Source: a virus
Strand: one strand, 5' to 3'
DNA length: 64,000 nt
IMG/VR virus record: IMGVR_UViG_3300008448_000040
Span: 1-64,000 of that record
Each line of letters begins with the position of its first letter. Within the stretch, counting starts at the first letter, position 1. The notes below the pieces were generated by a model, which worked only from the letters and a program-made list of their open reading frames with translations, had not been told where the DNA came from and searched no databases. This document shows, piece by piece, positions 1,747 through 44,714 of the stretch. Made by a program: the position numbers and the translations under genes.

Positions 1747-3086
1747 TTTTTATAAATCTCCAATAATTTTTTCAATTCAGAAATAGGCTCTTTCCATGTT
1801 CTTGGTTTTACTTGTCTAAGTATTTCAACATGATCTCCATACCATGGACTATATTTGGATGAATGACACCATGTATAATAATGAGAAATAGGTGTAAAGA
1901 TATAAGTCTTCTTTCCCATAGCAGCTGCAGCATGTGCAATTGATGTGCATGACGTAATAACAAAATCTAAATCATCTATTACTTTTAGAGTAACCTCAAA
2001 GTTTTTAAGATCCTTTGATATATCTATCAGTCCAGGAAAATCATTGAATTGATCAAACCCATCCTCTTTTTGAAGGCAATAAAAATCAGCATCAATGTGT
2101 TTTACAGCTTGATAAATTTCTCTGACAGGTAATGTTCTATGAAGATCTTGATCATAGAGAGGATTACCTTGCCATCTGATACCAATCTTTAATCTATCAC
2201 TTTTTTTGACTGGACTAACAACATTCTTATCAGCTGAGATGTACGGACCATACCATAAGTCTTTATACTCCATGTTAAGATAAACTGGAATATCCATTGT
2301 GTGAGTCCACAATACCTCACTTTCATCATACCTAATGTAATCCATGTTGTTGATTACATCGAATCCTAATCTTTTGAATATCTGTGTTGTTTGCTTGTTT
2401 GTAGAGAACCAGATAGGTTTCATACCAAGATCTCTGATTGTTTTCATGAACCTGAAATTGACGAACTCGTCCCCAAGTCCTGCTTCAGCTAATAAGATTA
2501 TCTTTTTGTTCTTGACAATCTCGCCTTCCCATCTATCAAATCTAAGCTGAGGTTTTTTCCAGATGTCCATCTTTCTACCCTCAAACAAAAACTTTTTGAG
2601 ACCTGGTAGAAATTGATCCTTCATCATTTCATATGTGCCGAGATTGAAAGTCACAGCTGTTCTCTGCTCCTCAGTCAAATCTTTACGATCTAATAAAGAT
2701 CTCAGTATATCCTCAGCCACATCTTTCTCATTATTAAGAAAGTGCGCAAATGACTTACTCATTAGAAGATCAATATTTGATGGATAGATTGATTCGATCA
2801 TTCTATATGTCTTGATTGCCTTTTCAGGTAAATTAGCACTAGCATAAGCTCCAACAAGATTAAATCTTGCCATACTAACGAGTTCTTGATTCTGAGTGCA
2901 TGCTAATGCTTTCTCAGCAAAATCAACAGATTTCTGATACTGTTTAAGTACGTTGTAACATTCTGCTACCTGCATGAATTCTTCAAAAGTAACTGCATGT
3001 TTTGAAAGAACATCGATTAATTTAATTCCAACGTCAAATTCATTGAATCCCTTCAACGTCTCGCATAATGATCTAAGTGTAAGCAT
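1743..3086 (-). CDS. TPR-repeat protein with C-terminal GT9-like glycosyltransferase domain
   Basis: Helical TPR-like N-half; EAGLGDEF, KIGIRWQGNP and LDFVITSCTSIAHAAAAMGK motifs typical of TPR-GT9 fusions. Confidence 0.75.
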   Translation of the reverse strand: MLTLRSLCETLKGFNEFDVGIKLIDVLSKHAVTFEEFMQVAECYNVLKQYQKSVDFAEKALACTQNQELVSMARFNLVGAYASANLPEKAIKTYRMIESIYPSNIDLLMSKSFAHFLNNEKDVAEDILRSLLDRKDLTEEQRTAVTFNLGTYEMMKDQFLPGLKKFLFEGRKMDIWKKPQLRFDRWEGEIVKNKKIILLAEAGLGDEFVNFRFMKTIRDLGMKPIWFSTNKQTTQIFKRLGFDVINNMDYIRYDESEVLWTHTMDIPVYLNMEYKDLWYGPYISADKNVVSPVKKSDRLKIGIRWQGNPLYDQDLHRTLPVREIYQAVKHIDADFYCLQKEDGFDQFNDFPGLIDISKDLKNFEVTLKVIDDLDFVITSCTSIAHAAAAMGKKTYIFTPISHYYTWCHSSKYSPWYGDHVEILRQVKPRTWKEPISELKKLLEIYKK

Positions 3087-4574: not shown

Positions 4575-5885
4575 CTACATTAGCTCACGATAGGTATTGT
4601 ACCAATCATATGCGTCGCAAGTAAGAGTGGTTGTTTCGCCTCTAAGCATGTATGTTGGACCATCAGCATAAGGTGAAGTTATACTCACGGCTATCCAGTT
4701 ATTTGCACCAGCTATCTGAACAGGGGTTGAATAACAAACGATTCCTGTACCTCCAAGACCAAGTGCTCCCGTACAACAATCATATCCCCATGCCCACGCT
4801 GACCCATCCTTTTTGATAGCGACTACTCCACCAGATCCAGTGACAGTATTTGTAGAACCTGCGTTTGTGTGGATTGCTAAAGTTTTCCATCCAGTTTCAC
4901 CGCAACAAGGTACAACAGGGGTAGATACAAAAGTTCCATCTGAACAATTGATTCCTAGCAATCCATGACAATTGCGTCCCCACGTGTAAAGTTTACCACT
5001 CCTTGTGATAGCTATACCAAAAACTGCTCCTGTTGCTACTTCACAAAAAGTTTCACTTGTTATAACTTGAACAGGCGAGCTTCTGCAGGTGGTAGTACTA
5101 TCTCCTAGCTGTTGAGAAGTGCCATTCAAACCCCAAGACCATAAAGTACCATCACATTTAATAGCAAAAGATCTTTCACCAGTACCCATGTTTTTGGGTA
5201 GTTTGTACCAATCCCTACAAAAACCGATTTGAATTGGAGTTGATTTACTTACAGTTGTACCGTCTCCAAGTTGGCCCACTCTATTTTTACCCCACGCCCA
5301 CAAGGTACCATCAGTCTTTATTCCTAATGTATGCTCGTAACCCATTGCAACTTCTTTCCAGCAGTTACCACCTGTAGTAGGTAACACTTGTACTGGACTA
5401 TTTGCATTACTGACATTACCATTTCCTAAACGACCACAATCATTTCTACCCCATGCCCACAAAGTACCATCACAACGTATTGCAGCAGCTCCACCAGGAA
5501 AAATACAATTACCTTGACCATACACACACTTCCACTTGAATGGAGTGGTGCCAGCAATCAAAGCTGGAGTAGATCTTGCAGTCGCAATTGTACTACAAGT
5601 TCCAAGTAAGCAGTCTGAATTTGTTCCCCAGGCATAAAGTAGTCCTTCGCAATCAATTGCATAATTATTTGTTGGGCTACCTCCAGATATTTGCTTCCAT
5701 CTTATATAATTACCAGAAACTGTTACAGGAGAAAAAGTTGATGAACATGAAGTTACAGTAATATCATTGAATCTAGCACCGGCAGCATACAAACCACCTT
5801 CAACAACAAAATCTTTTCTAATGAATACATCATCAAGATCAGTTGCAAAATCTCCAAACGCGCATGTATAGAATCTACCTGACAT
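4575..5885 (-). CDS. RCC1-repeat beta-propeller protein, Cys-rich (likely virion/tail associated)
   Basis: Repeated DGTLWAWGxNxxGxLG...STPxQI units. Confidence 0.85.
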   Translation of the reverse strand: MSGRFYTCAFGDFATDLDDVFIRKDFVVEGGLYAAGARFNDITVTSCSSTFSPVTVSGNYIRWKQISGGSPTNNYAIDCEGLLYAWGTNSDCLLGTCSTIATARSTPALIAGTTPFKWKCVYGQGNCIFPGGAAAIRCDGTLWAWGRNDCGRLGNGNVSNANSPVQVLPTTGGNCWKEVAMGYEHTLGIKTDGTLWAWGKNRVGQLGDGTTVSKSTPIQIGFCRDWYKLPKNMGTGERSFAIKCDGTLWSWGLNGTSQQLGDSTTTCRSSPVQVITSETFCEVATGAVFGIAITRSGKLYTWGRNCHGLLGINCSDGTFVSTPVVPCCGETGWKTLAIHTNAGSTNTVTGSGGVVAIKKDGSAWAWGYDCCTGALGLGGTGIVCYSTPVQIAGANNWIAVSITSPYADGPTYMLRGETTTLTCDAYDWYNTYRELM

Positions 5886-7123
5886 TAGAGATATCCTCCT
5901 CTACCTTCTTTCAAAGCTGCAACGGGATTACTACCTGTTGCCACTGATATCCATCCCTTATCGGTTCCAACTCTGACCGGACAACAATATCTATCCAGTA
6001 GCACGGAATTGTTTGTACCAGACATTTTTGCAATACCCCATGCCCACAATGAGCCATCCATAGCAATACCAAACATAGTGTTATTTACACCTTTGCTGAG
6101 AGCTACCCATCTGAAATTATCTGCTAAAGTTGGAACGCTTATACATCTGGTAGTGTCAGAGTCTCCTATACCCCCAATCATATTACAATTACGACCCCAC
6201 ACAAATCTTCTTCCATATTGATCCAGTGCTTGCATTCCTGATCCTTGACCGGAAGGAATAATACATTTGAACTTTGTTCCAGCAGCTATCTGTATTGGCG
6301 TAGATACTTGTCCGGTTGTAGTTCCATCTCCGCGAATACCACAACATGCTAGACCCCATGACCACAAATCGCCTTGATTATCAATTACAAAGGCGGCGCT
6401 ACTTGCAACAGCTATATCTTTAATTCCTCTGTTTGTGAAGCCACATACTTGTACTGGAGATGATGTAGGATTTGTGTTACCATTTCCCACTAACGCTCCA
6501 AATCCCCACGACCACAGAGTACCATCACATCTCACAGCAAGCGCTGAGACAGTACCCATGGCAACTTTATTCCAAAAACCAGACAAACAAGTTGGAAGAG
6601 CCGTATCATTCGTGGTACCTCTACCTAACTGGCCATTACCACCAATTCCCCATGTCCACAAGGAATTATCAGTTCCAAGCGCAGCTACACTATTAAAATA
6701 CCCATCAACACAAAGCCATCCGGCTGGGGAAGCAGCAGTTATTTGAACTGGAGTACAATACATTGTTGCTGTAGCATTATTACCTAACCAGTAACCATCA
6801 CCCCACCCCCAAAGTGTGTTATCTTTTCTGACAGCCCACACGTTGAAAGCACGAGCGTTGAGGTTTCTCCAATTGCTTGATCCATCAAGATTGAAAAAAC
6901 AATAACATGATCTATTAGTCTCTAGGTTTCCCAATGTCATCTGAGGTATACCAGCATCATAGTCACATCCAGTTACCCAAAGCTCGGAAGTAGAAGCTCC
7001 CAAATCTAGGGAAGGATGTAGCCAATTCACATCTTCTTTTTTGACATATATGTCGTCGGGAGTGCAATAATTATAGGCTTCTCCTGGCCAAATAGAATAA
7101 AACCCTGATTTCTTATCGGTCAT
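5885..7123 (-). CDS. RCC1-repeat beta-propeller protein, Cys-rich
   Basis: Repeated DxxLWxWG...GxG...SxPxQ units. Confidence 0.85.
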   Translation of the reverse strand: MTDKKSGFYSIWPGEAYNYCTPDDIYVKKEDVNWLHPSLDLGASTSELWVTGCDYDAGIPQMTLGNLETNRSCYCFFNLDGSSNWRNLNARAFNVWAVRKDNTLWGWGDGYWLGNNATATMYCTPVQITAASPAGWLCVDGYFNSVAALGTDNSLWTWGIGGNGQLGRGTTNDTALPTCLSGFWNKVAMGTVSALAVRCDGTLWSWGFGALVGNGNTNPTSSPVQVCGFTNRGIKDIAVASSAAFVIDNQGDLWSWGLACCGIRGDGTTTGQVSTPIQIAAGTKFKCIIPSGQGSGMQALDQYGRRFVWGRNCNMIGGIGDSDTTRCISVPTLADNFRWVALSKGVNNTMFGIAMDGSLWAWGIAKMSGTNNSVLLDRYCCPVRVGTDKGWISVATGSNPVAALKEGRGGYL

Positions 7124-7135
7124 TAATAATCTCTA

Positions 7136-7774
7136 TTAATTATTTTTTAGACTTTGATAAATCTCAACTAGACCATCAAAATCATTACACTCATCTATTT
7201 GATTTGATAGAGATTGTTCCCAATCAAACAGTTCTTGTACACGATCATCAATTTTAGTTATGATATATTTCAAATGTCCTTTATTGAAATCAAGCCACTT
7301 ACCATTAATTTTGAATGGTATCGTAGATTCATCATCTGCCAAAAGATATTTTTGAAAGTAAATAGACCTACTTTCTCTATTGATTGATATTGATATATCT
7401 TCTTCTCCCACCTTCAAATTTAAACTATCATTTTCTCTATTCCATCTCATAGATGATATTGTTGATTTCAATTCAGATTTTATTGAGGTAATACTTTTTG
7501 GCGTACTGGAATAGGTTGCTGTACCCATAGCTTCAGTAAAAGTCCATGTAGGGCCTGTTCTATCATAAAACAAAGGATTTTGATTATGTTCAACAACCTC
7601 TGCAAATCTAATTTTATAACCTTCAACTGGTTCGTAAGGTACCCTTCTGAAGTCTGAGGGATTGAATTGTAGGTCTTCCCCCACTTCAGATTCAAGCGTG
7701 CTCAAGATAAGTCCAGGACTCCATTCTATTGGTCCCAGTAAAACTACATCATCTTTGTCTGTTAAAACGTACAC
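7136..7774 (-). CDS. DUF4376-like tail fibre assembly-type protein
   Basis: C-terminal KxxLKxxIxxxRWxRE...VQxxFDWE helical pattern; lies among fibre genes. Confidence 0.5.
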   Translation of the reverse strand: MYVLTDKDDVVLLGPIEWSPGLILSTLESEVGEDLQFNPSDFRRVPYEPVEGYKIRFAEVVEHNQNPLFYDRTGPTWTFTEAMGTATYSSTPKSITSIKSELKSTISSMRWNRENDSLNLKVGEEDISISINRESRSIYFQKYLLADDESTIPFKINGKWLDFNKGHLKYIITKIDDRVQELFDWEQSLSNQIDECNDFDGLVEIYQSLKNN

Positions 7775-7786
7775 TTTGATCTCCGT

Positions 7787-9049
7787 TTATAAAATTCCGA
7801 TGGCGGACCAGCCAATGTGGCCGCCTATGTTTTTCCATCCTTTGAATCCACCATTAGTAACTTGGACGGGGGTAGAAACACAAGGGACTGTACTACCAAT
7901 ACCAAGTTGACCACAGTCGTTACGTCCCCAAGCCCACAACGAACCATCTTTTTTAGTAGCTACCATAAAAAAAGAACCTACACCAGGGGTAATCAATGAG
8001 CCGAAACCACCTACGTGGACATCTACCCAATCACAACTACCACTCGTAACACTTGTACAATAACTACTAACTGTTGTACCGTCTCCAAGGTGACCGTAGC
8101 AATTGCATCCCCATGTATAAAGTTCACCATTTCTTGTTATTCCAGCTCCACTTATGAAACCAAGAGATATTTTTCTCCAGCAATTACCCATTTCAGGTAT
8201 TTGAACTGGAATATTATACTCACAACAATACACTCCTTGGTCACTTTGTAAAGGTATATTCCATCCACACTGATTTCTACCCCAAAAGTAAAGATGGCAA
8301 TCAAGACCAATAGCTAATACAGATGTAGAATTCCTGTGGGTCGACAATTCTCTAAATCTTGTATATCTATCTACGTATGAACAATCTTCGACTATCAAAG
8401 CGCTTGAATTTAAAACTGAGCGAGATATACATCCAGCCGGAGGATTATCGTATGGGACACCAGCTGCTAGTAAACCAAAACAATTTCTTCCAAGAGAATA
8501 CCACTCGTAACTCTCGCTCATTAAATAGCATGCATCACAGTTGGAAATAATGCATTTCCAACCAGTACCATACGTTGTAGCTACAGGAGTTGAAAGAGAG
8601 CCACCAACTCCATTTGAACCCCAGCACCAAACTGATCCATCATTTTTGATACCGTACATATTTAATATACCGTCGGGGTAAACATATCTCCAATCACATC
8701 CGACAACCTGAACTGGAGTTGATTTATCTGCTGTACCTGCAAGAGAATTACCTAGTTGGCCACACTGATTACTACCCCATGTAAAAAGTCTTCCATTACA
8801 GGTTATAGCAGCTGTGTTGTAAAACGATCTACAAACAAACTTCCAGTCCATTCCTCGTGAACAAGTTGGAATAGGAACTGTTCCCGTGTAAGTTGTATTA
8901 TTATTACCTAATTGACCAATATTATCGCAAGTTCGAAATGGAGGGGTACCAACGACCATACCCCCACCATATCTTAGCATGAAATCTTTTTTTTGAATAT
9001 ACTGAAAGCCAATTGGATATAATTGATCAGAACCACAATAGAAATTCAT
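7787..9049 (-). CDS. RCC1-repeat beta-propeller protein, Cys-rich
   Basis: GRLFTWGSNQCGQLG, DGSLWAWGRNDCGQLG repeats. Confidence 0.85.
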   Translation of the reverse strand: MNFYCGSDQLYPIGFQYIQKKDFMLRYGGGMVVGTPPFRTCDNIGQLGNNNTTYTGTVPIPTCSRGMDWKFVCRSFYNTAAITCNGRLFTWGSNQCGQLGNSLAGTADKSTPVQVVGCDWRYVYPDGILNMYGIKNDGSVWCWGSNGVGGSLSTPVATTYGTGWKCIISNCDACYLMSESYEWYSLGRNCFGLLAAGVPYDNPPAGCISRSVLNSSALIVEDCSYVDRYTRFRELSTHRNSTSVLAIGLDCHLYFWGRNQCGWNIPLQSDQGVYCCEYNIPVQIPEMGNCWRKISLGFISGAGITRNGELYTWGCNCYGHLGDGTTVSSYCTSVTSGSCDWVDVHVGGFGSLITPGVGSFFMVATKKDGSLWAWGRNDCGQLGIGSTVPCVSTPVQVTNGGFKGWKNIGGHIGWSAIGIL

Positions 9050-40948: not shown

Positions 40949-41460
40949 TAGTGCCTCGAGTAGAATACATGCATACCAATTCTAACCTTGCGCTTGAGAT
41001 TCCAGTTAGGTTGAACATATGTTGCATGGAAAAACAGTGAACCTTTAGATGGGTCTTTGTCCCTGATGTTCTTGTGATTCTCAGCAATAATCCTTGCCAT
41101 ATTTTTTATTTGACGATACCTTTGTGGATCGCTGATATGTGGATTCTTACCGAGAATACAGACCCATGAAAACTGGCATACTTCACCTAGTTTTTGATGG
41201 ACTACTCCACAAATGGTGGATGGGAAAGTACCATCAGCAACTCTATTCATTGTTACAAAACCAACTGCACTGACGCCTTTATCAGATTCTGATTTGGCTT
41301 CAAAATACATATTTCTTGCAAGGCACTCAATCTGTTTCTCGGAGTACTTTGTTATGAATGGCTGTTCTTGGACTATGTCGTGATCTGCTTCTGAGAACTC
41401 ATTAGCTGCAAATACTAGTGAACATAGACCAAGCAGTGTTATAAGCACTAGCTTTTTCAT
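40948..41460 (-). CDS. Cell wall hydrolase, SleB/Hydrolase_2 family, with signal peptide
   Basis: CLARNMYFEA, VxxVTMNRV, FPxTICGVVHQ, CQFSW, FFHATYVxPxW, IGxHVFY. Confidence 0.9.
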   Translation of the reverse strand: MKKLVLITLLGLCSLVFAANEFSEADHDIVQEQPFITKYSEKQIECLARNMYFEAKSESDKGVSAVGFVTMNRVADGTFPSTICGVVHQKLGEVCQFSWVCILGKNPHISDPQRYRQIKNMARIIAENHKNIRDKDPSKGSLFFHATYVQPNWNLKRKVRIGMHVFYSRH

Positions 41461-41592
41461 GTTAACTTCCTCTTTGATTAATGAAATGAAGGATAGAGGT
41501 GAAACTTTCAGTTATCCGAATTAAGAGTCAAAACGCAATAATTATCAATAAAACATAATATTTCGAGCCGTGGGCTCTATTGTAGATAGAGT

Positions 41593-41600
41593 TATTTATA
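41593..41600 (-). promoter_or_regulatory. T4-type late promoter TATAAATA
   Basis: Exact TATAAATA on the minus strand in the intergenic region upstream of the SleB hydrolase. Confidence 0.65.
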
Positions 41601-41610
41601 AAAAATATTT

Positions 41611-42276
41611 TTAAGAATCATAAACATACTTTTTTCTTTGCTCCAAAACTTCTTTTCCTACTGTTTCGTGTAACTCTCTTAGTTTCTTATCGGAAGGAAT
41701 GTCAGGCTTGATTGCTAGTTGATCTCTGCAGTCATACTTGAATTCTTTGAATGGTCCATCAGCATCGACATAATGTAAGAATATTTGAGTCATTTCGTTT
41801 CCGAGATAATTACCAGGTCTCCAATGAGGAACTTCACATCCTTTGTAAATAGCTAAATCACCTGGTTCTAACAATACCCTTTCTTCTGATCCATCATCTT
41901 GATCGAAACACATCTCCCAGGGAATAGGATCATAGTAAGTATTGAGAGTGACTGAATATTCACAGCTAGGCCTATCAATATGTTTAGGTAAGATAGAGTC
42001 TTTATAGTAAATCCTAAAATAGCTGTAAGTGGGATATAGTTTTTTACCAGAAACCTCTTCTACCATTGGCTTCAAGTACTCTAATAATGTTTCAGTACAA
42101 CTCCAGCCATATGCTTTAAAGCATTGCTTAGTCATTTTATCTGAAAAATAAGTCAAATCGGATTTGTCTACTCCGAGATTGTAGTAGTAAGTGTCTCTGA
42201 AGATCTTAACTTGCTGATTTATGAATGAAGTCAGCTCTGGAGAGATAGCATTTCTAATAATGTGATATTTATTCAT
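41611..42276 (-). CDS. 2OG-Fe(II) oxygenase-like protein (start probably MNKYH at 42276)
   Basis: LYPTYSYFRIY, HIDRPSCEYSVTL, PGD..IYKGC...HWR, QIFLHYV. The longer track ORF runs into the tmRNA 3' hairpin. Confidence 0.8.
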   Translation of the reverse strand: MNKYHIIRNAISPELTSFINQQVKIFRDTYYYNLGVDKSDLTYFSDKMTKQCFKAYGWSCTETLLEYLKPMVEEVSGKKLYPTYSYFRIYYKDSILPKHIDRPSCEYSVTLNTYYDPIPWEMCFDQDDGSEERVLLEPGDLAIYKGCEVPHWRPGNYLGNEMTQIFLHYVDADGPFKEFKYDCRDQLAIKPDIPSDKKLRELHETVGKEVLEQRKKYVYDS

Positions 42277-42289
42277 AGAGTCAAAAATT

Positions 42290-42610
42290 AATGCCGGCTG
42301 ATTGGGTAATAAGGACAGCCGGCTAAACCCCATCTAGCAATTTAAGCTGCTAGAGCGTAACGCTCGTCATTTGCGTTTACTATTTTGCTTCATTTACGTC
42401 GATCGCCTGACGTGTTGTCCACTCTCCTACTCCTTGCCCTGTCGAAACCATGTCTGGCCCATCAGAAGTGTCCTGCTGTTCACAGGTCGGGAATTCCAAT
42501 CCTCAGAGCTTTGTTAAACCCTTACATATCACCCTAAACAACACTTCTGGTGGACCAGGCGGGAGTCGAACCCGCGTCCAGAACACCTTTTGGTTTGCTT
42601 CATACAACAA
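42290..42610 (-). ncRNA. ssrA: Circularly permuted (two-piece) tmRNA, tag peptide ANDERYALAA
   Basis: Minus strand order: T-arm GCGGGTTCGACTCCCGC plus CTGGTCC-A-CCA (3' end 42548); 87 nt spacer; 5' piece GGGCCAG-ACATGGTTTCGAC (G1 at 42460) forming a 7 bp acceptor stem with G3.U70; tag ORF 42374-42342; terminal hairpin GCCGGCTG...CAGCCGGC. Outer ends are approximate. Confidence 0.93.
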
Positions 42611-42621
42611 TATCTAACACA

Positions 42622-42834
42622 CTATGTAGGATCCACCCCTACGTAACCGACCAGCGGTATCTTAGTCTTGTCGTCGCCTTTGCCACTTCTAGATGAATAG
42701 TGTGTTCTTTTTTGCTGTTCACAATATTCTACACAGTGTCCACAGCAAATGTCAACATCTTTGAGTCTGTTCAACAGTTCATCTGATGTATCGTAGTCTG
42801 ATTCTTTGATGTTTCTGCAAACACAAACAATCAT
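42622..42834 (-). CDS. Bfd-like [2Fe-2S] ferredoxin
   Basis: MIVCVCRNI...CCGHC (CxC...CxxC) motif. Confidence 0.75.
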   Translation of the reverse strand: MIVCVCRNIKESDYDTSDELLNRLKDVDICCGHCVEYCEQQKRTHYSSRSGKGDDKTKIPLVGYVGVDPT

Positions 42835-42846
42835 GAAAACTCCTAG

Positions 42847-42987
42847 TTATCTTATGTAATTTCCTGTCACGACCACATAGATGAACAAGACCCAGCCAAA
42901 CCTAAGAGCAATATCAAACCAACGCTCAAAGTGATCTAACCAAGTCTTGTTCGTTCCAGAGTTTTTAGATTCTGGTGAGAGACTCAT
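42847..42987 (-). CDS. Small single-pass membrane protein (46 aa)
   Basis: Not in track. [46 protein letters not shown]; start overlaps the rubrerythrin stop. Confidence 0.55.
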   Translation of the reverse strand: MSLSPESKNSGTNKTWLDHFERWFDIALRFGWVLFIYVVVTGNYIR

Positions 42988-43418
42988 TGTACTCCTGCGT
43001 TGTAAGCGTCGAGAGTTTTCTTGAACTTACCAGCGTGGCTACGCTCTGCCTTAGCAAGAGTTTCAAACCAGTCAGCAATTTCATCAAACCCTTCATCACG
43101 AGCAGTCTTAGCCATACCAGGGTACATATCAGTATATTCGTGTGTTTCACCCTCGATAGCTGACTCTAGTGCCTGTGCAACATTCTTAACTTCCATACCG
43201 GTTGCAGGATCACCAGCAGCACCGTTCAAAAGGTATTCCATGTGACCATGAGCATGGCCAGTCTCACCTTCAGCTGTATGACGGAACACAGCAGCAACTT
43301 CAGGAGATCCTTCAATGTCAGCCATGTTTGCGAAATATAGATAACGACGGTTTGCTTGTGATTCACCAGCAAAAGCCTCTTTGAGGTTCAACTCAGTTTT
43401 TGTGCCTTTTAAATTCAT
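42984..43418 (-). CDS. Rubrerythrin (short di-iron form without rubredoxin domain)
   Basis: [70 protein letters not shown]. Confidence 0.95.
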
Positions 43419-43427
43419 AATATCTCC

Positions 43428-43454
43428 AAAAAAATGAGCCCCGTGAGGGGCTCA
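43428..43454 (-). terminator. Intrinsic terminator downstream of pqqA
   Basis: TGAGCCCC-TCAC-GGGGCTCA followed by T7 on the minus strand. Confidence 0.85.
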
Positions 43455-43480
43455 ACTATCTAGTGTTGATTGATAGTTGA

Positions 43481-43555
43481 TTAACGATTTGCGATATACA
43501 TTGTGATTTCAAAACCAAAACGCATGTCATTTGCAGTTGGTGTAGTCCACTCCAT
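43481..43555 (-). CDS. pqqA: Pyrroloquinoline quinone precursor peptide PqqA (24 aa)
   Basis: Not in track. MEWTTPTANDMRFGFEITMYIANR with WxxP, RxGFE and the ExxxY core; SD AGGAG upstream. Confidence 0.93.
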   Translation of the reverse strand: MEWTTPTANDMRFGFEITMYIANR

Positions 43556-43635
43556 TTTTATCTCCTATTGTAAAAGCCACAATTGGCTAGACAGTATCTA
43601 GTAAGTTATGACTAAAATACAACTGGGTAAAAACA

Positions 43636-43758
43636 TTATTTATTGCTAATCCATTCACCTGCTTTTGACAGATCTTTACCTGCACCAGATACAGCACCAC
43701 CAAGGGTGCCGCATCCAGTCATCAAAAGCATCAGAACTACTGATGCTAATTTCTTCAT
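43636..43758 (-). CDS. Entericidin EcnA/B-like small lipoprotein (40 aa)
   Basis: Not in track. MKKLASVVLMLLMTGC-GTLGGAVSGAGKDLSKAGEWISNK: lipobox plus GxGKD...GExI amphipathic tail. Confidence 0.7.
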   Translation of the reverse strand: MKKLASVVLMLLMTGCGTLGGAVSGAGKDLSKAGEWISNK

Positions 43759-44714
43759 GCTACCTCCGCCATCTCGACAGCGGTCTCAAGTGCCTTCACC
43801 TTCAAAGCCTTGTTAGGACCATACCAAGCCGATGTCAGACGACCTTCTTGTGTACGACCAACAATGTGGTCAGTCAAGAACGTGACAGCATTGAATGCTT
43901 GCCACCAAGATCCCTCAGCAAACTTGGCACCTGGTTGCTCATAGAGAGCTTCCAAAGCCAGCTCTGCAGACTTGGATAGTTCTTTCTTAACTTTGGTCTC
44001 TTCATTCTTAGAACGACCATAGGCATTGACAGGGAAGATACGGCTGAAGTATTCCTTCACAGTCTCTTCCTTGTACTTCTTGCTGCCCAAGAACTTAGCC
44101 ATCTCTTTGTACTTAGCGAGCTTGTCAGAAGCGATACCCAACGTCTGCTTCACTTGGTCACCATCAAATACACGGCGATGGGATACTTTCACCATATTAT
44201 CTGATTTAGTATTGAGTGACAGCGTAAGAGTATTGTTGCAGACCACGCGTATCGGAGTGAAACGAACGTCAATAGACTGACCAAACTTGTGAGGTAGAGT
44301 GAAAAGTAGATATGACTCCACAGTGTCACCATTGAATACATCAAAGCTCTCCTTGATCTTAGCCAGTGCCCACACGATCTGACCATTTTTCAATGAACCA
44401 GCTGTGTGCATTTCCATGTCACCAGAGCATACGAAGTCGTTAAAGAACTCAAATGCTTCGTGATTCTGCATAGGATTCCAATCTTGCGACACAACATCAA
44501 GGATTTTACCATCAGTTGAGCGTACTAGAGCGTCCTTGCCAGTGTAAACTTGCTTGTCAAACACTTTAGCAAACGTAGGAATCTTCTGAACTTGCCAGTC
44601 AAGACCAGCTGCCTCGAGCATTTGATGTGGTGAAAGGTCAGAAGGAACAGGCTTACCAAGACCATGCCATGGAGTTGCGCCTGCGTATGCCATTGTTTCG
44701 ACTAGATGAGCCAT
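43755..44714 (-). CDS. DUF932 / phage-plasmid LGT family protein
   Basis: METMAYAG.TPWHGLG, AGLDWQV, PMQNHEAFEFF, TAGSLKNG, FTPIRVVCNNTL. Confidence 0.85.
   Translation of the reverse strand: MAHLVETMAYAGATPWHGLGKPVPSDLSPHQMLEAAGLDWQVQKIPTFAKVFDKQVYTGKDALVRSTDGKILDVVSQDWNPMQNHEAFEFFNDFVCSGDMEMHTAGSLKNGQIVWALAKIKESFDVFNGDTVESYLLFTLPHKFGQSIDVRFTPIRVVCNNTLTLSLNTKSDNMVKVSHRRVFDGDQVKQTLGIASDKLAKYKEMAKFLGSKKYKEETVKEYFSRIFPVNAYGRSKNEETKVKKELSKSAELALEALYEQPGAKFAEGSWWQAFNAVTFLTDHIVGRTQEGRLTSAWYGPNKALKVKALETAVEMAEVA

What the first reader, a model, noticed from the sequence alone, without database searches (positions are those of the whole stretch)
43481..43555. Phage-encoded PqqA, the ribosomal precursor peptide of the redox cofactor PQQ, as a stand-alone gene
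Seen: a 24-codon ORF below the track cut-off, MEWTTPTANDMRFGFEITMYIANR, with an AGGAG SD and its own downstream terminator. Established: PqqA peptides have the pattern WxxP..D/E.RxGFExxxY, and the Glu and Tyr of ExxxY are cross-linked by PqqE/PqqD to build PQQ. PqqA is consumed stoichiometrically, unlike the catalytic PqqB-E. No pqqB-E is visible in this window. Inference: the phage supplies only the consumable substrate to the host pathway, sustaining PQQ-dependent methanol/alcohol/glucose dehydrogenases during infection. That would be a minimal RiPP-type auxiliary metabolic gene that standard gene callers miss. It could instead act as a decoy.
Basis: partly seen in the sequence, partly recalled or inferred. 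Interest (0 to 1): 0.9.

Follow-up and report, generated by a model that had tools for sequence, protein, structure and literature searches.

The report
Phage-borne PQQ precursor gene pqqA
A freshwater T4-like phage carries an intact 24-codon copy of pqqA, the small peptide that bacteria use up to make the redox cofactor PQQ, and none of the enzymes that process it; the gene is real and under selection, but phage-borne pqqA was already reported in 2020.

Summary
Observation confirmed. Window 43481-43555 (minus strand) encodes MEWTTPTANDMRFGFEITMYIANR, with an AGGAG ribosome-binding site 6 nt upstream and a strong hairpin/T-run terminator downstream. It scores above the curated cut-offs of both PqqA models (PF08042 37.9 bits, cut-off 21.1; TIGR02107 39.3 bits, cut-off 20).

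The context is a T4-like myophage (gp32, gp59, baseplate genes). The gene sits in a variable cargo island with rubrerythrin, a small lipoprotein and a beta-type tmRNA.

It is not an assembly chimera. A near-identical cassette occurs in another metagenome, and 10 of 80 relatives found through the neighbouring DUF932 gene carry an intact pqqA in the same island (pN/pS 0.18).

No pqqB, C, D or E, and no PQQ dehydrogenase, is in the 78.7-kb record. None occurs in 120 other viral pqqA loci, in 40 longer viral records or in 5 cultured methylophage genomes.

At least 146 IMG/VR contigs and all nine cultured Methylophilaceae phage records returned carry an orphan pqqA, with no CDS annotated for it in the records inspected.

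The function is inferred, not shown: extra consumable precursor for the host PqqB-E pathway.

Viral PqqA was published in 2020 (Lake Baikal viromes). This scan has also noted it on other DNA (224 notes, at least 133 genomes). It is a new member of a known kind. Its peptide is of non-Methylophilaceae Burkholderiales type.

The parts
43481..43555 (-). pqqA coding sequence: 24 codons plus TAA, peptide MEWTTPTANDMRFGFEITMYIANR. The Glu16 and Tyr20 of the E-x3-Y cross-link motif are present.
   Evidence: Translation. PF08042 37.9 bits and TIGR02107 39.3 bits, full-length model matches. Purifying selection in relatives, pN/pS 0.14-0.18.
43562..43566 (-). Shine-Dalgarno AGGAG, 6 nt before the ATG.
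   Evidence: Read from the sequence. A GGAG or AGGA-type site is kept at the same distance in 9 of 9 unique relatives found through DUF932.
43428..43478 (-). Two hairpins after the stop codon. The second (43454-43435) is GC-rich and followed by a run of seven T: an intrinsic-terminator-like site between pqqA and rubrerythrin.
   Evidence: Terminator scan. RNA fold -20.3 kcal/mol, z -4.25.
42984..43418 (-). Rubrerythrin gene directly downstream. It is co-oriented cargo of the same island, not part of PQQ synthesis.
   Evidence: PF02915 96 bits. Also found next to pqqA in L051, L122, L279 and L321.
43636..43758 (-). A 40-aa entericidin-like small lipoprotein gene directly upstream.
   Evidence: PF08085 24.4 bits, cut-off 23.3. 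Conserved upstream of pqqA in L281, L284, L285 and L321.
41461..43754 (-). Variable cargo island between the conserved DUF932 gene (43755-44714) and the conserved block of cell-wall hydrolase, orf78, gp59 and gp32 (39139-41460). pqqA is one of its interchangeable cargo genes.
   Evidence: Synteny over 80 related viral loci. The flanks are conserved, the island content varies, and pqqA is present in 10.

Best explanation
This is a genuine, translated pqqA gene carried as stand-alone cargo by a freshwater T4-like myophage.

Proposed mechanism: during infection the phage message yields a 24-residue PqqA peptide. The host's own PqqD chaperone and PqqE radical-SAM enzyme would bind it and cross-link Glu16 to Tyr20. 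The host protease, PqqB and PqqC would then finish PQQ. Each PQQ molecule consumes one PqqA, whereas the enzymes turn over. The phage therefore adds only the consumable part. This would raise or maintain PQQ supply for periplasmic PQQ-dependent dehydrogenases and so the energy supply for phage production.

Shown here: family membership, the intact motif, the translation signals, the phage context, the absence of pqqB-E, recurrence in several phage groups that differ in taxonomy and genome size, and purifying selection at the protein level.

Inferred: expression during infection, processing by host enzymes, and a fitness benefit. The host is not identified. The beta-type tmRNA and the peptide type point to a freshwater betaproteobacterium (Burkholderiales) that may not be a Methylophilaceae.
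For: Identity:
- Both curated PqqA models match above cut-off over their full length.
- It is the only match in the record.

Gene signals:
- AGGAG at a 6-nt spacing and a terminator.

Phage context:
- gp32, gp59, endolysin-like hydrolase and baseplate or tail PHROGs.

Not a chimera:
- L321, from another metagenome, has the same cassette at 99-100% protein identity.
- Ten of 80 relatives fetched through DUF932 have an intact pqqA in the same island.
- Runs from 11 studies hold part or all of a 1.9-kb stretch spanning pqqA.

Selection:
- pN/pS is 0.18 for the 9 unique sequences ascertained without reference to pqqA, and 0.14 for 20 of this peptide type.
- One peptide is encoded by 25 different DNA versions in 31 contigs.
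- 120 of 120 hits to a pattern that did not demand Glu or Tyr keep E-x3-Y and stop 3-4 residues later.

Stand-alone status:
- No PqqB, C, D or E in the own record.
- 0 of 120 viral loci (1.0 Mb), against 53-72 of the roughly 125 bacterial loci, by the same tblastn.
- PqqC in 0 of 40 longer viral records, 9 of them at least 90% complete, with a 5 of 5 positive control.
- PqqE in 0 of 45 records over the cut-off, including 5 cultured phages. PqqC in 0 of 5 cultured phages.

Dosage logic:
- 81 of 81 Methylophilaceae genomes have 1-12 scattered matches to the PqqA model.
- This agrees with 3-12 pqqA copies against a single pqqBCDEFG set in Beck et al. 2014 (PMC4109929).

Host-like peptides:
- 82 of 120 viral peptides carry the Methylophilaceae-type C-terminal half, and many are identical to host peptides.
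- Phage loci L284 and L285 carry a peptide identical to an orphan pqqA of an Oxalobacteraceae genome.

Prior report of the same reading: Coutinho et al. 2020.
Against: - No direct evidence of transcription or translation. The only metatranscriptome contig laid covers 43608-43789, upstream of pqqA, and DNA carry-over cannot be excluded.
- The host is unknown, so the presence of pqqBCDE and of PQQ enzymes in the real host is not shown.
- The record is only 45% complete, so pqqB-E elsewhere in this genome cannot be strictly excluded. The closest complete relative (172 kb, L122) has no PqqC or PqqE.
- pqqA is present in only about half of the closest relatives and in none of the roughly 59 more distant ones, so it is dispensable.
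- Whether precursor supply limits PQQ synthesis within one infection cycle is not known.
Confidence: 0.75

Rival explanations
1. Decoy or inhibitor. The phage peptide binds host PqqD/PqqE but is not turned into PQQ. It would shut down or divert cofactor synthesis, for example to save SAM and reducing power or to block a competing process.
For: The window's peptide differs from every bacterial peptide retrieved by at least 4 of 24 residues, all in the leader. No experiment excludes unproductive binding.
Against: Many viral peptides are identical to host peptides, so they cannot act other than as substrate (L284/L285 against L187). The cross-linked Glu and Tyr and their spacing are kept in 120 of 120 sequences found by a pattern that did not demand them. 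A decoy would be free to lose them. All differences lie at leader positions that also vary among bacteria.
Confidence: 0.06
2. Passenger gene. pqqA was picked up from dispersed host copies into a hyper-variable island and is carried without real benefit to the phage.
For: It lies in an island whose content changes between close relatives. It is present in only 10 of about 21 relatives with at least 79% DUF932 identity. Hosts offer many scattered copies as donors.
Against: pN/pS is 0.14-0.18, with conserved ribosome-binding sites. No decayed or half copies occur in the 70 relatives that lack it. It recurs in phage groups that differ in taxonomy and genome size: Kyanoviridae-type myophages, Zobellviridae, 35-39 kb phages and a 356-kb phage. 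This fits repeated capture and retention.
Confidence: 0.13
3. Not a phage gene: a host fragment joined to a phage contig by mis-assembly, or a bacterial contig mislabelled as viral.
For: Such mislabelling exists. The 'Acinetobacter phage MD-2021a' hits are bacterial contigs with ppk and pqqBCDE.
Against: Phage genes flank the gene on both sides within 200 nt to 3 kb. The same arrangement occurs in independent contigs from other samples. A 937-nt unitig from an unrelated study bridges pqqA to DUF932.
Confidence: 0.01
4. The conserved element is an RNA (a terminator or regulatory hairpin region, or part of the tmRNA precursor), and the small ORF is incidental.
For: Strong hairpins follow the ORF. 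In relatives L279, L280 and L284 pqqA is followed by a conserved non-coding stretch that I took, without testing, to be the start of a tmRNA-like sequence.
Against: No Rfam family matches the ORF; only the tmRNA at 42269-42661 matches. Variation is concentrated at synonymous sites. The downstream sequence differs between relatives while the ORF is kept.
Confidence: 0.02

Closest known systems
Virus-encoded PqqA of Lake Baikal methylotroph phages (Coutinho et al. 2020, Microbiome 8:163, PMC7678222)
   Same: A PqqA precursor peptide gene on an uncultured freshwater viral genome, read as an auxiliary metabolic gene that boosts PQQ for host dehydrogenases.
   Different: The Baikal representative also encoded a methanol dehydrogenase. 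Here no PQQ dehydrogenase is found in the record or in the closest large relatives. The peptide here is of a type not found in 301 Methylophilaceae genomes searched.
Orphan pqqA ORFs of cultured Methylophilaceae phages (Melnitz, Venkman, P19250A, MEP301, MEP401/402)
   Same: An intact stand-alone 23-24 codon pqqA without pqqB-E. In the five records inspected, no CDS is annotated for it: none at the site in four, and in Melnitz only a call on the opposite strand.
   Different: These phages have a marine or LD28 Methylophilaceae host and carry the host-type peptide ending ...EVTMYVMNK or similar. The window's peptide ends ...EITMYIANR and shares only 64-68% identity with them.
Dispersed orphan pqqA copies of bacterial chromosomes (Methylophilaceae 3-12 copies, Beck et al. 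2014, PMC4109929; also Oxalobacteraceae locus L187)
   Same: The same family, the same length, stand-alone and away from pqqBCDE.
   Different: Those copies are chromosomal and share a genome with one pqqBCDE set. Here the copy is on a lytic-type T4-like phage genome.
Canonical pqqA of the pqqABCDE operon (PF08042 / TIGR02107), e.g. Methylophilaceae MAG locus L130, Limnobacter L230
   Same: The W-x-x-P ... R-x-G-x-E-x3-Y pattern, full-length HMM match and small size.
   Different: No pqqB follows. A terminator and a rubrerythrin gene follow instead.

Membership tests
PqqA (Pfam PF08042; NCBIfam TIGR02107 equivalog) | Score above the curated cut-off of the family models | tested here: met
   PF08042 37.9 bits against 21.1. 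TIGR02107 39.3 bits against 20. Model positions 1-19/19 and 1-21/21 are matched.
PqqA (Pfam PF08042; NCBIfam TIGR02107 equivalog) | Conserved Glu and Tyr separated by three residues (the atoms of PQQ), near the C-terminus of a peptide of about 20-40 residues | tested here: met
   E16-I-T-M-Y20 in a 24-residue peptide. Retained in all viral homologues, including 120 found without demanding it.
PqqA (Pfam PF08042; NCBIfam TIGR02107 equivalog) | Leader with W-x-x-P and R-x-G before the core | tested here: met
   W3-T-T-P6 and R12-F-G14. Same pattern in the roughly 120 bacterial peptides retrieved.
PqqA (Pfam PF08042; NCBIfam TIGR02107 equivalog) | Genomic association with pqqBCDE | tested here: not met
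   None in the record. This is not a strict requirement: orphan copies are the rule in Methylophilaceae and occur in other Burkholderiales.
PqqA (Pfam PF08042; NCBIfam TIGR02107 equivalog) | Conversion to PQQ by PqqD/E, a protease, PqqB and PqqC | not testable with these tools
   Needs biochemistry or complementation. The complex predictor asks for chains of 30 residues or more, so it was not run.
Phage auxiliary metabolic gene (AMG) | Encoded inside a bona fide phage genome, not a host flank | tested here: met
   T4-like genes on both sides. Conserved position in independent viral contigs.
Phage auxiliary metabolic gene (AMG) | The host has the rest of the pathway | tested here: inconclusive
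   The host is not identified. Bacteria with the same peptide type (Limnobacter, Derxia, Burkholderia, Polaromonas and others) have pqqBCDE next to pqqA, and 5 of 5 test genomes have PqqC.
Phage auxiliary metabolic gene (AMG) | Expressed during infection | tested here: inconclusive
   One metatranscriptome contig covers 43608-43789 only, not pqqA.

The most novel reading that the evidence does not exclude
Phage-borne pqqA is not confined to phages of Methylophilaceae methylotrophs. This freshwater T4-like lineage carries a peptide type (…GFEITMYIANR) found in 0 of 301 Methylophilaceae genomes but in 10 of 401 Burkholderiales genomes searched. A sister phage carries a peptide identical to an Oxalobacteraceae orphan copy. 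If so, supplying the consumable PQQ precursor is a general phage strategy against any host that relies on PQQ dehydrogenases. The peptide type could then serve as a host marker for uncultured phages.
Probability: 0.35. Interest if true: 0.5.

Novelty: new member of a known kind. Interest (0 to 1): 0.33.

Why it matters
It is a clean example of a phage carrying only the stoichiometrically consumed part of a cofactor pathway, a gene so small that gene callers skip it. It is unannotated in the cultured methylophage records inspected (five checked directly), so surveys of viral auxiliary metabolism will under-count it. Because cultured phage-host pairs carry the homologue, the idea that precursor supply limits PQQ during infection can be tested directly. 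For this window itself the finding is ordinary: the kind was published in 2020 and has been met many times in this scan.

Tried and rejected
I used degenerate DNA patterns instead.
- Read laying: Logan unitigs are short. None of those listed bridges pqqA to rubrerythrin. The single RNA contig lies upstream of pqqA, so there is no evidence on transcription either way.
- Host assignment by BLAST of the phage tmRNA against 101 Methylophilaceae genomes gave only 32-70 nt matches to conserved tmRNA cores, which is uninformative.
- gp32 has no close cultured relative; the best are cyanomyophages at 51-54% identity. The host cannot be read from isolates.
- The 'Acinetobacter phage MD-2021a' hits were rejected as bacterial contigs.
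I looked for half-motifs in the 70 DUF932 relatives without an intact pqqA and found none.
- Complex prediction was not run, because the peptide is shorter than the 30 residues the tool asks for.

Full report
**Observation**

The minus strand of window 43481-43555 holds a 24-codon ORF that translates to MEWTTPTANDMRFGFEITMYIANR. AGGAG lies at 43566-43562, six bases before the ATG.

Two hairpins follow the TAA stop. The second is a GC-rich stem at 43454-43435 followed by a run of seven T, and the terminator scan finds it. The 66-nt stretch folds at -20.3 kcal/mol, z = -4.25, and no shuffle of 200 folds as well.

The peptide matches the full length of both curated PqqA models above their cut-offs: PF08042 37.9 bits against 21.1, E 1.7e-9, and TIGR02107 39.3 bits against 20, E 3.9e-10. 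A six-frame scan of the whole record finds this one match only. Rfam finds no RNA family on the ORF.

**Context**

The window is the first 64 kb of a 78.7-kb IMG/VR virus record, estimated 45% complete. It is a T4-like myophage:
- gp32 at 39139-40068, the gp59 helicase loader at 40125-40715 and an endolysin-type cell-wall hydrolase at 40948-41460;
- baseplate wedge, tail and tube-cap proteins further left.

The best cultured matches of gp32 are cyanomyophages at only 51-54% identity, so there is no close isolate.

pqqA sits in a co-oriented run of small cargo genes, in this order on the minus strand:
- DUF932 (43755-44714);
- a 40-aa entericidin-like lipoprotein (43636-43758);
- pqqA;
- rubrerythrin (42984-43418);
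- two small ORFs;
- a permuted tmRNA (42269-42661; RF01850 beta_tmRNA 140 bits, tag ANDERYALAA);
- a 240-aa PHROG-2954 protein.

**Not a chimera**

I fetched 80 viral relatives through the DUF932 protein, that is, without reference to pqqA. Their backbone is conserved: DUF932, then cell-wall hydrolase, orf78, gp59 and gp32. The stretch between DUF932 and the hydrolase varies in length and content.

Ten of the 80 have an intact pqqA in that island. All ten have at least 80% DUF932 identity. L321, from a different metagenome, has the same cassette at 99-100% protein identity and the identical peptide. A 1.9-kb stretch spanning pqqA is held wholly or in part by freshwater, lake and aquaculture metagenome runs of 11 studies. 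A 937-nt unitig from an unrelated study joins pqqA to DUF932.

**Stand-alone status**

The record has no PqqB, PqqC, PqqD or PqqE and no PQQ-dependent alcohol dehydrogenase.

I labelled a reference pqqABCDE operon from a Methylophilaceae MAG with NCBIfam and used its four proteins in tblastn:
- 0 of 120 viral pqqA loci (1.0 Mb) have any of them;
- 53-72 of the roughly 125 bacterial pqqA loci do.

On whole records:
- PqqC is in 0 of 40 longer viral records, nine of them at least 90% complete. The positive control was 5 of 5 bacterial genomes.
- PqqE is in 0 of 45 records over the cut-off. Three weak generic radical-SAM hits of 22-28 bits appear, as in all control genomes.
- PqqC is in 0 of 5 cultured phage genomes.
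- The closest large relatives, including the complete 172-kb genome behind L122, and Melnitz have no PQQ dehydrogenase.

**How common it is**

tblastn of the peptide against GenBank phages returns nine records of cultured Methylophilaceae phages: four Melnitz strains, Venkman, P19250A, MEP301, MEP401 and MEP402. It also returns one spring-water virus.

I read the ORF itself in three records, and each is intact with an ATG and a stop. I inspected the annotation in five records. No CDS is annotated at the site in four of them, and in Melnitz the only annotated CDS there lies on the opposite strand. The two 'Acinetobacter phage MD-2021a' hits are bacterial contigs with ppk and pqqBCDE and were discarded.

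Together they give at least 146 contigs, and all encode intact 22-25 residue PqqA peptides. The carriers range from 35-44 kb genomes to T4-like genomes of 136-172 kb and a 356-kb genome.

**Selection**

The second pattern covered only the leader half and did not demand Glu or Tyr. All 120 hits nevertheless keep GFE-x-x-x-Y and stop three or four residues later.

Among the nine unique coding sequences ascertained through DUF932, pS is 0.46 and pN is 0.08, a ratio of 0.18. For 20 unique sequences of the same peptide type the ratio is 0.14. The commonest viral peptide is written in 25 different DNA versions across 31 contigs. A ribosome-binding site is kept at the same distance.

The 70 DUF932 relatives without pqqA show no half motifs or decayed copies. 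The gene is therefore either intact or cleanly absent. This fits a selected but dispensable cargo gene.

**Host and peptide type**

Methylophilaceae peptides retrieved from genomes read MWT[TK]PAATEMRFGFEVTMYVMNK or close variants. 82 of 120 viral peptides carry the Methylophilaceae-type C-terminal half (…EVTMYVMNK or …EVTMYVCNK), and many are identical to host peptides.

The window's peptide belongs to another type, …DMRFGFEITMYIANR:
- Its nearest relatives (21 of 24 residues) are in other large T4-like viral contigs.
- Among bacteria this C-terminal half occurs in Limnobacter, Oxalobacteraceae, Derxia, Burkholderia, Polaromonas and similar genera.
- The pattern for it was found in 0 of 301 Methylophilaceae genomes and in 10 of 401 Burkholderiales genomes searched.
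- Two sister phages (L284, L285) carry a peptide identical to an orphan pqqA in a genuine chromosomal region of an Oxalobacteraceae genome.

With the beta-type tmRNA, this points to a freshwater betaproteobacterial host that may not be a Methylophilaceae. It is a hint, not an assignment. BLAST of the tmRNA against Methylophilaceae was uninformative.

**Mechanism**

From established knowledge of the pathway, PqqD presents PqqA to the radical-SAM enzyme PqqE, which joins the Glu and Tyr side chains. Proteolysis, PqqB and PqqC then complete PQQ, so one peptide is consumed per cofactor (Barr et al. 2016, as cited in PMC7678222 and PMC9851590).

Bacteria that depend heavily on PQQ multiply only pqqA. 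In my sample, 81 of 81 Methylophilaceae genomes have 1-12 scattered matches to the PqqA model. Beck et al. 2014 report 3-12 copies of pqqA against one pqqBCDEFG set (PMC4109929).

A phage that adds one more strongly translated copy follows the same logic. The best-supported reading is therefore substrate supply to the host pathway. This step is inferred. I could not show transcription: the one metatranscriptome contig covers 43608-43789 only.

The rivals fare as follows:
- A decoy role is unlikely, because many viral peptides equal host peptides and the reactive residues are never lost.
- A neutral passenger is hard to square with the selection figures and with recurrence in phage groups that differ in taxonomy and genome size. 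It is not excluded, because close relatives do without the gene.

**Comparison with the known**

Coutinho et al. 2020 described a PqqA gene in a Lake Baikal viral population predicted to infect methylotrophs and proposed exactly this role (PMC7678222). In the library no other paper discusses viral pqqA. The Melnitz paper mentions PQQ only as a medium supplement.

This scan has met phage pqqA often: 224 notes in at least 133 genomes, with follow-ups reaching the same verdict.

The window adds three things:
- a member in a freshwater T4-like lineage without a viral methanol dehydrogenase;
- a non-Methylophilaceae peptide type;
- a clear view of pqqA as one interchangeable item in a cargo island.

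**Verdict**

The function is inferred. The finding is a new member of a known kind, of modest interest.

Noticed in passing
window 42269-42661 (-): Phage-encoded permuted two-piece tmRNA of the betaproteobacterial type (RF01850 140 bits, cut-off 84; RF04321 144.9 bits), tag peptide ANDERYALAA. Depth in other metagenomes peaks here, so the core is shared with many organisms.
   Followed up: partly
window 41461-43754: A hyper-variable cargo island between DUF932 and the hydrolase-orf78-gp59-gp32 block. Relatives carry different mixes of pqqA, rubrerythrin, an entericidin-like peptide, tmRNA and a PHROG-2954 protein, and the island is about 0.5 to 3.5 kb long.
   Followed up: partly
window 41601-42285: One contig of an aquaculture metagenome joins 41601 to 42285 with 4 other letters between. 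This is a variant that lacks the 240-aa PHROG-2954 gene (41611-42333).
   Followed up: no
window 42984-43418 (-): Rubrerythrin gene (PF02915, 96 bits) with 71% nucleotide identity to the 'putative rubrerythrin' of Pelagibacter phage Mosig. Mosig gave no PqqA hit.
   Followed up: partly
window 43608-43789: A 182-nt contig of a metatranscriptome matches at 100% over the entericidin-like gene and the end of DUF932. This is possible expression of the gene upstream of pqqA, but DNA carry-over is not excluded.
   Followed up: no
L002 (MZ577097.1, Melnitz) 2967-3072: The annotated hypothetical CDS MelnitzEXVC044M_152 lies on the strand opposite to an intact pqqA ORF (3001-3072, +), directly before a tRNA-Leu. 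The annotated CDS is probably a mis-call.
   Followed up: partly
L276 (CAKLQF020000010.1): The record named 'Acinetobacter phage MD-2021a' holds ppk, pqqBCDE and a 5'-nucleotidase. It looks like bacterial chromosome filed as phage.
   Followed up: partly
L184 (CAYUDI010000075.1): A contig binned as 'uncultured Bifidobacterium sp.' is 80-89% identical in DNA to an Oxalobacteraceae region with an orphan pqqA. It is probably mis-binned.
   Followed up: no
window 4575-9049 (-) and 58036-59571 (-): Three adjacent 412-436 aa proteins match RCC1-like ('regulator of chromosome condensation') PHROGs. A 511-aa Nol-like carbamoyltransferase (phrog_1601, 501 bits) is also present.
   Followed up: no
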